DNA of 64,000 bases from Mobula hypostoma. Taxonomy: Eukaryota. Below, one piece after another: positions 3,037 to 20,152 of the stretch (its first letter is position 1; every line of letters begins with the position of its first letter). Under the pieces are notes generated by a model. That model saw nothing but the letters and a program-made list of their open reading frames with translations, was not told where the DNA came from and made no database searches. The stretch is taken from assembly GCF_963921235.1 (NCBI RefSeq), contig NC_086108.1, positions 17,298,001 through 17,362,000 on the forward strand, written 5' to 3'. Made by a program: the position numbers and the translations under genes.

Positions 3037-3633
3037 ATCAGAAGCAGAAGGCTATTCGGCCCCTTGACACTGTTGCTCTGTGTCCGATCTGATTGTAACC
3101 CCAACTTCAGATTCCCGTCGACCCCGGTAATATTTCACCTCCTTGATGTGCAAGCATATGCAGCACAATATTCAAAGACTCTGTTTCCACCACTGTTTGA
3201 GGAAGAGAATTCCAAAGACTCACAGCTCTCTGAAAGAAAAATATAAATAGTGCTGCTCGCAGGAGTTGGGGGGAGCGGTTAAACTAGAGTTGCAGGGGGA
3301 TGGAAACCAGAATGCCAGAGCAGACAGTGGAGACCTTGAGGGAGAAAGATGTTGTTAAACCTACATCAAAGTCAGTAATCAAAAGGTTGAGCATGGTGGG
3401 ACCAATGTTCTGAGCTGCATATATTTCAATGTGAGAAATATTATAGAAAAGTGGATGAGCTCAGAGCATGGATTTGCACATGAAATTATGATATTGTAGT
3501 CATGAGTGAGACTTGCAAGAAGGACAGGACTGGAAGCTCAATATTCCGGGGTTCTGTTGTTTTAGAGGTGATAGAGCAGGTGGAGGGGTGGCATTACAAG
3601 TCAGGGAAAATTGTCACAGCAATACTCAGACAG

Positions 3634-4207
3634 CACACTCACAACACGCTGGAGGAACTCAGCAGGTCAGGCAGCATCCATGGAAATGATGAGTTGACAT
3701 TTCGGGTCGGAACCCTTCGTCAGGACTGAAGAGGGAAGGGGCAGGGGCAGGGGCCCTATAAAGAAAATGGGGGAGGGTTGGAAGTAGAAGGTTGGTAGGT
3801 TCAGTTGAAAAACCAGTAATTTGAAAGACAAAGGGGTGGGGGAGGGGAAGCAGGGAGGTGATAGGCTGGAAAACAATGGGTAGTAGAAGGAGGCGGAACC
3901 ATGAGGGAGGTGATAGGCAGCTGGGGGAGGGGCAGAGTGAAATAGGGATAGAGGAAGGGAAGGGGAGAGAATTACTGGGAGTTGGAGAATTCTATGTTCA
4001 TACCAAGGGGCTGGAGGCTACCTAGACGGTATATGAGATGTTGCTCCTCCAACCTGAGTTTAGCCTCACCATGGAAGTAGAGGAGGCCACATATGGACAT
4101 ATCCGAAGGGAATGGGAAGCAGAGTTGAAGTGGGTGGCTACTGGGAGATCCTGTCTGTTGTGGCAGATGGAGCAGAGGTGCTCAACGAAGCGGTCCCCCA
4201 ATCTGCG
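3634..4207 (-). mobile_element. Penelope-like element 3' part (GIY-YIG end plus pLTR with minimal hammerhead at 3691-3728)
   Basis: Minus strand encodes ...QDLPVATHFNSASH..DMSI..L...KLRLEEQHLIYRLGSLQPLGMNIEF; HHR-like CAGTC CTGACGA AGGGTTCCGACCC GAAA TGTC. Confidence 0.85.
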
Positions 4208-7435: not shown

Positions 7436-7937
7436 TGAAACATAGAAACATAGAAAGGATATGGCAAATGTGGATAGGGATAGGTTGGTTACTGGCTCAG
7501 GTATACTTGGTAAGTGGGAGGCCTTCCCAAGTGAAATTTTGAGAGTACAGTGTTTGTATGGAAACATAGAAACATAGAAAACCTACAGCACAATATAGGC
7601 CCTTCAGCCCACAAAGCTGTGCCGAACATGTCCTTACCCATAGCCTCCTATTTTTCTAATCTCCATGTACCTATCCAGGAGACTCTTAAAAGACCCTATT
7701 GTTTCTGCCTCCACCACTGCTGCCGGCAGCCCATTCCACGCACTCACCACTCTCTTCATAAAAATCTTACCCCTAACATCTCTTCTGTACTTTCTTCCAA
7801 GCACCTTAAAACTATGCCTTCTCGTGTTAGCCATTTCAGCCCTGGGAAAAAGCCTCTGACTATCCACACAATCAATGCCCGTCATCATCTTGTACACCTC
7901 TATCAGGTCACCTCTCATCCTCCGTTGCTCCAAGGAG

Positions 7938-9538
7938 TTACAAAATACACGTGGCCTAAGATGTTAACTGTCCTGTGCTATCACCAGTGGGATCATCAGT
8001 TGATCTGCCACCTGTCTTCAGGAGTTTCAGCCCACTTATGATCAAGACTCCCTCGAGGTGGTGGGCCAGCAGTGCGAAAGCACCACCTCCCACTGGTGAG
8101 CTTAAAAACTTGGCATCTGCTTCTATCAGAGTTGTTGGTCACTTCCATCCAACAGATAGTCTGCTCTTCAGGTGTCTATGCAACTACTGAAGGGTTTGCA
8201 AAAGATGTATACACTGTCTGACTATCTGCCCCTCTGGACATACTTGGTGCACACCCATGCTGATCCTTTCTCTGCTGCCTCAGCTACAGCCCTGCTAGTT
8301 GACATGATCTCTCTTCTAGTGAAGCCAAGGTCACGCAGCCACTTCTGGAGACTGAACGCAATAAACCCACGGCAGCCTACTTTGAATGGATAGCATGAGA
8401 CCTTCCACCCTCTGTCTCTGCACTCTGATCTTAATTCTGCATACTTGGTTAACTTGCGCTCATGGGCTTCATCGATGTTGTCTTCCCAGGGGACTTTGAG
8501 TTCACCAATAACCACTTCTCTACCGGTGTCAGACCATACGATTATATCTGGACGCAATGTTGTGAAAGCTATTTGCTCTGGGAAACTGCCTTTCCCGTCC
8601 AGGTCAGCCTTGACACACCAATCATTGGCTGAAGAAAGTATGCTTGATCATGAGCCTGCGCTGTACTCGTTGATCTTCTGTTCCATTGCCTAATGCTCTT
8701 GGAGATCAGCAAGCCCTGGCTTGTCACCCTCACTTGCTACCTTCCACCTCTGTCTCAATGATCTAAGCTCTCTCCTCAACCTACTAACCTCCTTCTGGCG
8801 CCTGCTTGTTTGCTGTGTAGGCTTTGCTTTCTTCAACTCAACCAAACCAGACCTGTACTTTCCAACATCGTAAATCATATCACCCATCACTTCCAACTTT
8901 CTCTTTGATGTTCCCCTGAGAGTGTTCTCCAACATCATACTGATATCCTCATCAAATACACGCTAAGCCTTCTCAACTGCCATTGCTGGCCACTTGACCT
9001 TCCTCTTCTTCTCTACCTCCACACCACCGCCATCATGCGAAGGATCTACCTGGGTATTGTGGTCTGAAACCTGACCCGGGTTATCTCTCTTCTGACCTGG
9101 AGTATGATGACTCTCTCCAGAGCGAATCGCTGTGGCTTGGGAATCAGTGGTTGAAAAGACCACATCATCTGTGCTTGGTGAAGTAATCTCATCTTCATCC
9201 ACTGGGATGGAATAGCACTTCAACTTTGCTTGGTGGACTCGTAAACCTTTAATGCTGGAAAATGCTCTCCTACACGAACACACTGGACACTCAGAGCCTC
9301 TTATCCTAGCTCTTGGTCGTAGTTGTTCCCTGTAATTAACCGTATCCGTCTGATTGGGTCCATCATTCTCCCTCCCTCTTGGAGGAGCCTGAGGGTATGT
9401 TTCTCCATGTGAACCAGAAGCTTCAAGAGGTAGGTGCTCTTCTGAGCTGGTGCCCGGACTGCCAATCCTGACACCCCCCGGTGCCAGTCTTTCCTGGCTG
9501 TCCGCTGTCTCTCCACGCTGTCACCGGACTATTCCCAG
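7938..9538 (-). mobile_element. HERO/R2-group (REL endonuclease) non-LTR retrotransposon, internally deleted and lacking RT
   Basis: N-terminal zinc finger CSCRRAFSSIKGLRVHQAKLKC, then VKWPA; C-terminal PD-(D/E)xK domain RPDIIVW...ELKVPWED..EAHERKLTKY..L...GW.....F.VGCRG (8222-8557); flanked by AGGAG at 7933-7937 and 9539-9543, where the CR1 reads through. Confidence 0.88.
7986..8061 (-). ncRNA. Candidate non-circularly permuted (pseudoknotted) hammerhead ribozyme with a kink-turn, in the HERO 3' UTR
   Basis: Minus-strand RNA: CCACCU CGA GGGAGU C UUGAUC AUA AGUGGG CU GAAA CUCCU GAA GA C AGGUGG CA GAUCAA CUGAUGA U CCCACU. Stem III GGGAGU/ACUCCU, stem I UUGAUC/GAUCAA, stem II CCCACU/AGUGGG. 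Confidence 0.75.
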
Positions 9539-18597: not shown

Positions 18598-20152
18598 GTA
18601 TCACAAAGCAAAAGAGCATACATGAAACAATTCTATCAAAGGAAAGTCCCAAGATTTTAATGAGTACATGATAGGATAACAAAGAAAGCTGTAGGTCAAT
18701 TGCTGCTGAAAATGAGTATGAGTGTGGAGATTGGAGGGGTGTACAGTCATAGATTGCATCTGTGTTCACAGATGAGGAGATGGTACAGATATTGACCATA
18801 GGGAGGAAGAGTATGAAATCTTCTACATGATAAAACTAGTGTGAGGTGACAGATTGAAGCATTTAGCATTTTAAAAATCAACAGATCACCAAGTCCAGAT
18901 AAAATGTGACCCATGTTTCTAAAAGAAGGTTTGAATGGAATAATGGAGCCTGACAATAACTTGTTTTGGCTACAGGAGGATAGCTAGTCATTAATGCAAT
19001 ATCAGTACTTATAATGTAAAAACAACATAACCTAAATAACTCATAAATCCAACACTGGTGGTTGGCAAATTATTGGAAAAATGTCTCAAACACACCATAA
19101 ATCAGTGCTTAAAGCAAAGCTTAATCAAAGAGAGTTGACATGGATTTAAGAGAGCAAAGGCTCTGACTGTTTTGAATAAATGTTTTGAGTAGTTCATTAG
19201 GAATTTCTTTTATGCCTATCAGGGATGTGGCTTCACAGGCAGGGGCCAGCTTTTAATTGCTCATCCCTGGTTTCCGATAAAATGATGGCAATTTTGGTCA
19301 CAGTGGCCTCTCTGGGTCCAACAAATGGTGCAGATGTGTGTCTTAAACAATTTTCACCTGATCGCAAGACCCAGTTTGACATTGGTAGTATAAAATACTG
19401 CGTCCGGTTCATTGGCTCATTGGAGAGACCGAGGGCAGGGGAGCTGCATGGCTTTGGCTGTTGCATGGACCAGACTCCCATGCCACAGCCTCACCTGTTA
19501 CAGCCAAACAGAAGAAAATGCACTGGTGGCAGTGTGGGAAAGAACAGAGGCATGTTGGTAATATCATACATGCTGAGTTGGAGGCTAGCCCTGCCCATCG
19601 ATGCTGCCTTCCAGGATAACATCCCTTGGACCATTAATCTTCAGGCCATGCCACTCAGGAACTGATGCTGACTGTTTGTGCTATCATAACTATATGTGCA
19701 GTGTGCGTGTGTGACTGTGTGTACAGTGTTTTATACCGTAGCCCTGGAGGAATGCTGTTATGTTTAGCTGTATACATGTGTATGGTTGAATGACAATTAA
19801 ACTGGAACTTGAACTTGAACTGTCATTGAGAAGGTGTTGGTGAACTTCCTTCCTGAACTGCTGTAGTACTTGAAGGGTGGATATGAACTGATGATGCTAG
19901 CACATTTCATGTTGACAGGTTAGAAGAGGCCTAGAAGAATGGTATTGGTGATTATTGGTGACGTTCTGTGGGCTGCAGAAAACTGTTTCAAAAATTATTT
20001 TTAATATACCTCTTTTGAATTACTCTCACTGCGATCTGCAGCATGTAACTTCCCTTTAAGCAATAAATTTTTAAATCTGCTGAATGATCTTCAGATCTCA
20101 CAATCGATTGAAGGACTTGACCGACCAAAGCAGGCACATTTAAGTGGTTGAA

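What the first reader, a model, noticed from the sequence alone, without database searches (positions are those of the whole stretch)
7986..8061. Non-circularly permuted, pseudoknotted hammerhead ribozyme with a kink-turn in a HERO retrotransposon 3' UTR
Seen: on the minus strand the three hammerhead strands are all present. Strand A is GGGAGU-C-UUGAUC (8052-8040, GUC cleavage triplet, predicted cut between 8046 and 8045). Strand C is AGUGGG-CU-GAAA-CUCCU (8036-8020). Strand B is GAUCAA-CUGAUGA-U-CCCACU (8005-7986). Stem I (UUGAUC/GAUCAA), stem II (CCCACU/AGUGGG) and stem III (GGGAGU/ACUCCU, one G-U) are each 6 bp. Established: types I, II and III are circular permutations with order A-B-C; here the order is A-C-B, which no circular permutation produces. 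Inference: the fold is feasible because a 3-nt AUA joins the outer ends of stems I and II, which lie side by side in the active fold. Stem III also continues into a consensus kink-turn (GAA bulge, tandem G.A/A.G, C.C, then AGGUGG/CCACCU) that could fold the chain back to stem I. Caveats: the base of stem II lacks the usual G10.1-C11.1 pair (U opposite CU; CUGAAA may be CpG-decayed CCGAAA). I recall natural non-circular hammerhead permutations being reported recently, so novelty for this family needs checking.
Basis: partly seen in the sequence, partly recalled or inferred. Interest (0 to 1): 0.95.

Follow-up and report, generated by a model that had tools for sequence, protein, structure and literature searches.

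The report
Rewired hammerhead ribozyme in retrotransposon tail
The untranslated tail of a very abundant jumping gene holds a conserved, knotted RNA fold with every catalytic letter of the hammerhead self-cutting ribozyme, wired in an order not described before, although cutting itself has not been tested.

Summary
The motif is not chance. The same domain lies in the ORF-sense 3' region of about 38 of 79 distant relatives (32-61% protein identity) from metagenomes, with different stem sequences. It is perfect only because this copy lost a CpG; the family majority is AGCGGG. The true stem II is GGCCC (8067-8063) with GGGCC just before GAAA (8033-8029), which restores G10.1-C11.1. The letters after CUGAUGA instead form a 12-bp closing helix P0 (8099-8088/7992-7981), followed by a hairpin Px.

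The chain is therefore open between A9 and G10.1. This makes the RNA a circular permutation of the published type-SGC hammerhead (Eckert et al. 2023), and none of that paper's six block orders fits it. The host is a restriction-like-endonuclease non-LTR retrotransposon with at least 1,000 copies; the HERO label is plausible but untested. Self-cleavage is inferred, not shown, and no genomic copy starts at the predicted cut. My searches of this scan's earlier notes found no earlier record of this RNA on other DNA.

The parts
8088..8099 (-). P0 closing helix, 5' strand (UCACCAGUGGGA)
   Evidence: Pairs over 12 bp with 7992-7981. The equivalent helix starts at the base right after A9 in relatives, and 10 of 10 pairs show compensatory changes.
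8068..8087 (-). Px hairpin (GGUGGUGC-UUUC-GCACUGCU) between P0 and G10.1
   Evidence: A hairpin at the same place in relatives, typically GGCAGUGA...UCACUGCC. RNAalifold predicts it de novo. Paired in 82-88% of cells.
8063..8067 (-). True stem II, 5' strand (G10.1 GCCC)
   Evidence: Pairs with 8033-8029. Covarying examples are GACCC/GGGUC, GACUC/GAGUC, GCUCC/GGAGC, GGGUC/GACCC, GAUGA/UCAUC and GCUGA/UCAGC. Paired in 96.6% of cells.
8056..8061 (-). Stem IV, 5' strand (CCACCU)
   Evidence: Pairs with 8013-8008. 5 of 6 pairs show compensatory changes and 92.5% of cells are paired.
8053..8055 (-). K-turn, non-bulged strand (C-G-A: 3n, 2n, 1n)
   Evidence: The signature G(2n), A(1n), G(1b), A(2b) is present in 24 of 43 distinct rows.
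8046..8052 (-). Stem III 5' strand GGGAGU plus C17; predicted cut between 8046 and 8045
   Evidence: The A15.1-U16.1 pair is kept in 37 of 38 instances. Position 17 is A 15, C 11, U 11. The 38th instance, the weakest hit, has no U16.1 and reads G at position 17.
8040..8045 (-). Stem I, 5' strand (UUGAUC)
   Evidence: Pairs with 8005-8000. Positions 1-5 are paired in 33-37 of 38 instances, with 4-5 pair types each.
8034..8039 (-). Joiner from stem I to stem II (AUAAGU; family majority AUAAGC)
8029..8033 (-). True stem II, 3' strand (GGGCU here; GGGCC in the family, C11.1 = 8029)
8025..8028 (-). GAAA (G12 A13 A14 A15.1)
   Evidence: Invariant in 38 of 38 unique instances.
8020..8024 (-). Stem III, 3' strand (CUCCU after A15.1)
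8014..8019 (-). K-turn, bulged strand (GAA loop, then G-A-C)
8008..8013 (-). Stem IV, 3' strand (AGGUGG)
8000..8005 (-). Stem I, 3' strand (GAUCAA)
7993..7999 (-). CUGAUGA box (C3-A9)
   Evidence: CUGAnGA in 37 of 38 instances. N7 is U 24, C 10, A 2, G 1.
7981..7992 (-). P0 closing helix, 3' strand (UCCCACUGGUGA).
7936..7980 (-). 3' tail of the element, ending ...GUGUAUUUUGUAAC
   Evidence: Similarity among 30 copies ends at about 7935 in most and at 7942 in others. In partial tandems this tail abuts the next unit's 5' end.
7942..9535 (-). The retrotransposon copy in the window, internally deleted
   Evidence: Unit positions 57-899 map to 9535-8692 and 3138-3862 map to 8666-7942, measured against a 3,868-nt genomic unit used as a ruler.

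Best explanation
Window 8099-7981 (minus strand) is a compact domain of about 120 nt in the 3' UTR of a non-LTR retrotransposon that carries a restriction-like endonuclease. The domain holds a complete hammerhead catalytic core in a wiring not described before.

The 5'-to-3' order is: P0 5' strand, Px hairpin, stem II 5' strand starting with G10.1, stem IV 5' strand, k-turn, stem III 5' strand, C17 (the cut site), stem I 5' strand, a 6-nt joiner, stem II 3' strand, GAAA, stem III 3' strand, k-turn, stem IV 3' strand, stem I 3' strand, CUGAUGA, P0 3' strand.

Stems I, II and III meet at the catalytic junction. Stems I, II and IV meet at a second junction. The k-turn bends stem IV back onto stem III, which closes the cage. 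The RNA chain enters and leaves between A9 and G10.1 through P0. This is a circular permutation of the published type-SGC hammerhead, opened inside its 'Block C'.

Shown: the helices, the core and their conservation. Inferred: the RNA cuts itself after C8046. After a cut, the two products would stay held together by P0, II, III and IV, about 29 bp.

I think the most likely role is to trim read-through or multi-unit transcripts of partial-tandem copies to unit length, possibly with re-ligation or circle formation. The domain may also serve as the fold the reverse transcriptase recognises.
For: - **Core:** CUGAnGA in 37 of 38 unique instances, with all four bases at N7. GAAA in 38 of 38. U16.1 followed by a non-G base in 37 of 38.
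- **Helices, sequence-only alignment:** on a MAFFT alignment of 18 distinct sequences, 39 pairs in 7 helices are 90.1% paired against 62.0% in shuffles. The covariation score is 0.698 against 0.200. No shuffle of 500 reached the observed value on any of the five measures. Slid partners give 33-47% paired.
- **Helices, model-fitted alignment:** on 44 distinct rows, 87.2% paired against 62.6%. Stems I and II were not part of that model.
- **De novo prediction:** RNAalifold predicts P0, Px and stem II on its own.
- **G10.1-C11.1:** G-C in 17 of 18 sequences, plus one G-U.
- **Place and strand:** 49 of 50 covariance-model hits lie on the ORF-sense strand. 20 of 29 loci that hold the ORF end and at least 200 nt downstream carry the domain, in 19 of them starting 60-172 nt after the ORF.
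- **Scanner control:** 23 hits against 0 on the other strand and 0.35 expected from shuffles.
- **Relation to type SGC:** the SGC-1 oligos in the supplement of PMC10085705 read S, G, a linker, the stem I 3' strand, CUGAUGA, U, GGUCC, GCUCUCU. The last piece pairs with the linker. The adjacencies II-5' to IV-5' and IV-3' to I-3' are the same as here.
- **Published activity of relatives in kind:** five type-SGC RNAs cleaved in vitro at the predicted site.
- **Partial tandems:** in this genome L142 and L143 show a 351- or 797-nt partial unit followed by a full unit of about 3,850-3,868 nt. Metagenome contigs carry the domain on both sides of one ORF.
Against: - No cleavage assay and no RNA end data exist for this RNA. 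No listed run is on record as RNA, and only contigs could be laid.
- No natural hammerhead that I know of has its backbone opened between A9 and G10.1. This rests on recall and on the block assumption stated in PMC10085705. The effect on catalysis is unknown.
- Genomic copies run straight through the cut site. 0 of 30 copies sampled by their C-block/P0 strand start at 8045. Genome-wide, 0 copies have five unrelated bases just before UUGAUC. RNAs that served as templates were therefore uncut, re-ligated or bridged.
- Rfam models give no hit, as expected for a pseudoknotted permutation.
- 9 of 29 relatives with downstream sequence lack a hit in that downstream region.
- The k-turn signature is absent or misaligned in 19 of 43 rows.
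- The 18 sequences were chosen, from 38 unique instances, for having P0 of at least 8 bp. This favours P0.
- The scanner seeds required U followed by a non-G base at the cut site, which biases position 17 mildly.
- The window copy itself has G10.1.U11.1 and sits in a dead, internally deleted element.
Confidence: 0.7

Rival explanations
1. The domain is a real, conserved RNA fold that descends from or converges on a hammerhead, but it no longer cuts. It serves as the 3' UTR structure that the element's reverse transcriptase binds to start target-primed reverse transcription, as the R2 3' UTR does.
For: The domain lies about 45 nt from the element's 3' end, where a recognition fold is expected. 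All genomic copies read through the cut site, and none starts there. The chain break at A9/G10.1 is unprecedented for an active hammerhead. The role of the R2 3' UTR is recalled, not checked here.
Against: All catalytic positions are kept, while N7 varies freely and position 17 avoids G. That is the pattern of active hammerheads. G10.1-C11.1 is kept. Type-SGC relatives in kind do cut. The two roles do not exclude each other.
Confidence: 0.22
2. One reading: a plain type-SGC hammerhead whose stem II is CCCACU (7991-7986) with AGUGGG (8036-8031), joined to stem I by AUA.
For: The six pairs exist in the window copy. The block order S-G-C and a 3-nt joiner match the published type.
Against: The family majority is AGCGGG, giving an A.C mismatch in 22 of 30 copies, and other organisms read the same. 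In relatives the segment after CUGAnGA has no consistent complement before GAAA. It pairs instead with an upstream strand of up to 15 bp. The 5 nt before GAAA covary with the far 5' strand.
Confidence: 0.03
3. The hammerhead-like words in a structured 3' UTR are a chance resemblance.
For: A rough hand estimate (inference, no call) gives about 1e-4 to 1e-3 chance sites of this quality per 64-kb window. A scan of some 250,000 windows would therefore meet some by chance.
Against: The core and its adjoining helices recur at the homologous place in relatives with 32-61% protein identity. The count is 23 hits against 0.35 expected, with compensatory changes in all helices.
Confidence: 0.02

Closest known systems
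Type-SGC hammerhead ribozymes (HRIMA-1 motif and variants; Eckert, Friedrich, Weinberg & Weinberg, NAR 2023, PMC10085705)
   Same: The hammerhead core is the same, and the cut-site block comes before the GAAA block. A short joiner runs from the stem I 5' strand to the stem II 3' strand. A fourth stem ties the other strands of stems I and II together. Both folds have multiple pseudoknots.
   Different: The stem II 5' strand and the stem IV 5' strand lie upstream of the cut-site block instead of after CUGAnGA, so 'Block C' is split between A9 and G10.1. A closing helix P0 and a hairpin Px sit in that gap. A k-turn joins stem IV covalently to stem III. The joiner is 6 nt, not 3. The hosts also differ: that paper reports its RNAs almost only from metatranscriptomes and none of this type in genomes of known organisms. 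Here the RNA sits in an animal-type genome, inside a retrotransposon with at least 1,000 copies.
Minimal type I hammerheads of Penelope-like elements (Cervera & de la Pena 2014, PMC4209133; cited, not read)
   Same: Both are hammerheads carried near the ends of a retroelement whose copies often sit as partial head-to-tail tandems. The PLE tandem arrangement is recalled, not checked.
   Different: This element has a restriction-like endonuclease rather than the GIY-YIG type (recalled). The PLE motifs are ordinary type I with a tiny stem III. Here all the stems are closed onto each other.
HDV-like ribozymes at the 5' end of R2 and other non-LTR elements (Eickbush & Eickbush 2010; Ruminski et al. 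2011; cited, not read)
   Same: Both are self-cleaving RNAs in restriction-like-endonuclease or other non-LTR retrotransposons. Both cut at their own 5' edge, so the ribozyme stays on the downstream product, which suits trimming of co-transcripts.
   Different: The ribozyme class differs. This one lies in the 3' UTR of the unit and precedes a coding unit only in tandem or partial-tandem copies.
Kink-turn (k-turn) motif
   Same: It has a 3-nt bulge, tandem G.A/A.G and flanking canonical and non-canonical helices, at window 8055-8053 and 8019-8014. The consensus definition is recalled.
   Different: I found no paper on a k-turn in a retrotransposon hammerhead (search). Kinking and L7Ae-type binding are untested.

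Membership tests
Hammerhead ribozyme | CUGAnGA box with a free N7 | tested here: met
   Window 7999-7993. 37 of 38 unique instances; N7 is U 24, C 10, A 2, G 1.
Hammerhead ribozyme | GAAA (G12-A15.1), with A15.1-U16.1 and a non-G base at position 17 | tested here: met
   GAAA in 38 of 38. A-U in 37 of 38. Position 17 is A 15, C 11, U 11. The seeds required U followed by a non-G base, a mild bias.
Hammerhead ribozyme | Three helices I, II and III abutting the core in the right polarity, supported by covariation | tested here: met
   This holds only after stem II is re-assigned to 8067-8063/8033-8029.
Hammerhead ribozyme | G10.1-C11.1 at the base of stem II | tested here: met
   G-C in 17 of 18 sequences plus one G-U. 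The family majority has C at 8029. The window copy has G.U.
Hammerhead ribozyme | Continuous strand from A9 into stem II, at most 1-2 extra bases (as stated in PMC10085705) | tested here: not met
   After A9 the chain enters P0. G10.1 lies about 74 nt upstream in the sequence.
Hammerhead ribozyme | Site-specific self-cleavage 3' of position 17 | not testable with these tools
   No RNA reads were available. Contigs cannot show RNA ends.
Type-SGC hammerhead (Eckert et al. 2023) | Order S-G-C with each block uninterrupted | tested here: not met
   S comes before G, but Block C is split. The order is II-5' ... S ... G ... I-3'+CUGAnGA.
Type-SGC hammerhead (Eckert et al. 2023) | Fourth stem tying the other strands of stems I and II | tested here: met
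   Stem IV, 8061-8056/8013-8008, is 92.5% paired and 5 of 6 pairs have compensatory changes. The homology to the SGC-1 stem is inferred from the oligo sequences; the figures were not seen.
Type-SGC hammerhead (Eckert et al. 2023) | Joiner of typically 3 nt from stem I to stem II | tested here: not met
   With the true stem II the joiner is 6 nt here (8039-8034). It is of variable length, mostly longer than 3 nt, in relatives.
Kink-turn | 3-nt bulge followed by tandem sheared G.A/A.G between two helices | tested here: met
   The window has GAA, then G-A, opposite G-A. The signature is present in 24 of 43 rows, and both flanking helices covary.
Kink-turn | Tight kink, and binding by L7Ae-family proteins | not testable with these tools
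   No RNA 3D tool or assay is available.
HERO clade of non-LTR retrotransposons | Reverse transcriptase plus a C-terminal zinc knuckle and a PD-(D/E)xK restriction-like endonuclease | tested here: met
   The motifs CAACGEKGTLQHILSAC and RPDIIVWSD...ELTVPWE...K..KY were read by eye. zf-RVT is a weak hit. Full-length homologues carry PF00078.
HERO clade of non-LTR retrotransposons | Placement in the HERO branch of the RT tree, apart from R2, R4, NeSL and CRE | not tested
   No reference sequences were at hand. Dispersed, non-site-specific copies fit what PMC4640811 says of HERO. Homologues occur in teleosts, amphioxus and bivalves.

The most novel reading that the evidence does not exclude
This is a new hammerhead topology. 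The conserved CUGAnGA strand is cut loose from stem II. Two three-way junctions are bridged by a k-turn, and the termini sit in a helix inserted between A9 and G10.1. The fold is conserved across HERO-type retrotransposons of animals.

In this reading the RNA cuts and, because about 29 bp hold the products together, re-ligates. Multi-unit transcripts become unit-length or circular RNAs that are both message and template. Reverse transcription running round such a template would explain the partial-tandem copies.
Probability: 0.25. Interest if true: 0.95.

Novelty: new variant of a known kind. Interest (0 to 1): 0.85.

Why it matters
Non-circular permutations of a ribozyme were first shown in 2023, and only in environmental RNA of unknown hosts. 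Three things would follow if this reading holds.

- **Placement in known biology:** such an RNA would be placed in a defined biological system, the 3' UTR of a widespread, recently active retrotransposon clade of animals.
- **Search rules:** the 'blocks' used to search for permutations can themselves be split, so present descriptor searches miss whole families.
- **Design:** the fold offers a natural blueprint of k-turn, second junction and closing helix for locking a hammerhead's products together. That bears on ribozyme engineering and on how restriction-like-endonuclease retrotransposons process or circularise their template RNA.

A short in vitro transcription would test it directly.

Tried and rejected
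- **Rfam:** no hit at the gathering threshold on the whole window. At E up to 10 on 7700-8400, only three chance lncRNA or snoRNA matches appeared.
- **RNA evidence:** no RNA holder was listed. The four runs laid were contigs, so starts, ends and strand cannot be read, and table 6 was empty. The falling contig depth from 7995 towards 8090 was not used as evidence.
- **Earlier notes of this scan:** by words, only Penelope-element hammerheads came up. By sequence and by place, nothing came up.
- **Miscounted pattern:** my first genome pattern had one N too many. It found a single odd copy, L031, with AAGCGGG replaced by CACCAGGG. I treated this as a one-off.
- **Within-family variation** looks like neutral decay and says nothing about selection. 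I dropped it as covariation evidence.
- **Pfam on window ORF fragments:** no hits.
- **Copies that begin at the cut site:** none found.
- **Fetching upstream of full-length copies:** I wanted 20 copies to see how often a full unit is preceded by a partial one. The four I could fetch were all 5'-truncated or internally deleted. The partial-tandem rule therefore rests on two own-genome cases plus the metagenome contigs.
- **Competitor hairpin:** GAGGUGGUG (8089-8081) with CACCACCUC (8062-8054) looked like a possible switch. I saw no equivalent in the flanks of relatives printed, and made no dedicated search, so I dropped it.
- **Scanner hit in L091** has a 70-nt linker. I dropped it as a false positive before alignment A2.
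- **Near-duplicates:** L070, L073 and the first L107 site were left out of A2.
Full report
**Observation.** CCACCU-CGA lies just upstream (8061-8053). Rfam finds nothing. That is expected, because the proposed stems all cross one another. A scanner I wrote looks for blocks S, G and C in any order, with stems counted outward from the core. It finds this as the only 6/6/6 site in the window.

**The host element.**
- The stretch belongs to a very abundant, young repeat. A 141-base query has over 1,195 candidates in the 3.48-Gb assembly, and the best 40 are 98-100% identical.
- An S-to-G pattern has 829 exact matches, and a 25-base C-block pattern has 1,035. Both controls gave 0.
- Upstream lies an ORF whose C-terminus has a CCHC knuckle and the PD...E...K signature of restriction-like endonucleases (read by eye).
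- Full-length homologues of 900-1,200 aa carry PF00078. They come from teleosts, amphioxus and bivalves, and from many contigs of about 4 kb.
- PMC4640811 (passages) lists five clades with this endonuclease and says that HERO holds many non-site-specific families. That fits the dispersed copies here. I did not build an RT tree, so 'HERO' stays plausible but untested.
- Copies end at about 7935-7942, and most are 5'-truncated at scattered points.
- The window's own copy is internally deleted: unit 57-899 joined to unit 3138-3862.

**The family state differs from the window copy.** I took 30 copies in genome order, anchored only on the C-block/P0 strand. In 22 of them the base at 8034 is C, and in 23 the base at 8029 is C. 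The first 100 of the 829 pattern matches look the same. Contigs of four other coded organisms mostly read C at both places.

**Known relatives in print.** Its features are a joiner of typically 3 nt, a fourth stem, and in vitro cleavage of five examples. They state that no RNA of this kind was found in genomes of known organisms.

**Distant relatives.** I aligned 15 homologues and scanned metagenome contigs. This gave 79 loci with 32-61% protein identity, all oriented with the ORF on the + strand.
- My relaxed scanner found 23 SGC-order motifs in 21 loci on the + strand and 0 on the - strand. Twenty dinucleotide shuffles gave a mean of 0.35.
- A covariance model built on stems IV and III only then found 50 matches at E up to 1. 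Of these, 49 are on the ORF strand, in about 38 loci at E below 2e-4.
- Of 29 loci that hold the ORF end and at least 200 nt downstream, 20 carry the domain. In 19 of them it starts 60-172 nt after the protein match; in one it starts at 723 nt.

**Revision of the fold.** The model-fitted alignment shows that the 5 nt just before GAAA pair with the 5 nt at the far 5' edge. Examples are GGCCC/GGGCC, GACCC/GGGUC, GACUC/GAGUC, GCUCC/GGAGC, GGGUC/GACCC, GAUGA/UCAUC and GCUGA/UCAGC. This is stem II, and it gives the canonical G10.1-C11.1.

The bases after CUGAnGA pair, from the very first base, with a strand 17-27 nt upstream of G10.1, over up to 15 bp. A run of 8 bp or more occurs in 19 of 35 instances, against 8.6% of shuffled controls. 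In the window this helix, P0, is 8099-8088 with 7992-7981, 12 bp. A hairpin, Px, fills the gap between P0 and G10.1 (8087-8068).

RNAalifold, given 18 sequences without any structure, predicts P0, Px and stem II.

**Counts.**
- On the MAFFT alignment A4 (18 distinct sequences, chosen from 38 unique instances for having P0 of at least 8 bp), 39 pairs in 7 helices are 90.1% paired against 62.0% in shuffles. Compensatory cells number 186 against 54.6. The covariation score is 0.698 against 0.200. No shuffle of 500 reached the observed value on any of the five measures, and slid partners give 33-47%.
- On the model-fitted alignment A3 (44 distinct rows) the figures are 87.2% against 62.6%, and 0.507 against 0.154. 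Stems I and II were not part of that model.
- Counting from the core outward on 38 unique instances, stem I positions 1-5 are paired in 33-37 of 38, and stem III positions 1-6 in 28-38 of 38. CUGAnGA is present in 37, GAAA in 38, and U followed by a non-G base in 37.
- The k-turn signature is present in 24 of 43 rows. The rest have another junction or are misaligned.

**What the wiring means.** Stem IV follows the stem II 5' strand and precedes the stem I 3' strand. The same adjacency can be read from the SGC-1 oligos. This is my inference, since I did not see the figures. The RNA is thus a type-SGC hammerhead whose former 3' end is joined through a k-turn to its former 5' end. It is re-opened between A9 and G10.1, with P0 and Px inserted there. 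That splits Block C, which the 2023 paper assumed cannot be interrupted.

**Function.**
- *Shown:* the structure, its conservation, its strand and its place.
- *Inferred:* self-cleavage after C8046. For it speak the intact catalytic set, the free N7, the avoidance of G at position 17, and the activity of published type-SGC RNAs. Against it stand the untested A9/G10.1 break and the fact that no genomic copy starts at the cut (0 of 30; 0 genome-wide).
- Two full units in this genome are each preceded head-to-tail by a partial unit of 351 or 797 nt. Several metagenome contigs carry the domain on both sides of one ORF, at spacings of 3.6-4.4 kb.
- I therefore favour trimming of multi-unit or read-through transcripts. 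The products would be held together by about 29 bp, which would allow re-ligation or circle formation. A pure role as a recognition fold for the reverse transcriptase is the main rival, and the two may coexist.

**Novelty.** Eight literature searches and passages of two recent papers gave no report of a hammerhead in HERO or other restriction-like-endonuclease elements, of a k-turn hammerhead, or of this permutation. Papers outside the library, and bioRxiv supplements, could not be checked.

Noticed in passing
window 7900-7937: Right after the element's 3' end lies part of a different repeat. It is extremely abundant in the contigs of all four runs laid, with depths of about 900 to 46,000 against tens to thousands for the element. 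Loose ends continue as AAAAGGCC....
   Followed up: no
L093, L088, L107, L099, L118, L138, L100 (Px loops); L101, L113, L128, L117: In many relatives the Px hairpin loop is a 6-nt palindrome, UGAUCA or UGGCCA. That is the kind of loop that can form kissing dimers. The own family has UUUA instead.
   Followed up: no
window 7942-9535; L145: The window copy and one other copy are internally deleted. They keep roughly the first 800-900 nt and the last 600-725 nt of the unit, with different breakpoints, and both start near unit position 47-57. This may be a non-autonomous form or template switching.
   Followed up: partly
L142 4931-9149; L143 4330-8976: Both loci show a partial-tandem organisation: a 5'-truncated partial unit directly followed by a full unit. 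The tail GUGUAUUUUGUAAC abuts a shared 5' end that reads UCUUUUGUUCUGG or a near variant.
   Followed up: partly
L065, L100, L101, L107, L124, L128: These metagenome contigs carry the domain on both sides of one ORF at spacings of 3.6-4.4 kb. Many contigs are about one unit long and start at arbitrary points of the unit. This fits tandem arrays or circular templates.
   Followed up: partly
L031 (G000:C21:179290735-179290763): A single copy has AAGCGGG replaced by CACCAGGG. The new letters lengthen the complementarity to the P0 3' strand.
   Followed up: partly
window 19843-19904 (+): A weak covariance-model match (14 bits, E 0.52) contains CUGAUGA but no GAAA block. It is probably chance.
   Followed up: no
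window 8089-8081 with 8062-8054: In this family GAGGUGGUG can pair with CACCACCUC. That would compete with Px, with stem IV and with the adjoining k-turn strand. I saw no equivalent in the flanks of relatives printed.
   Followed up: partly
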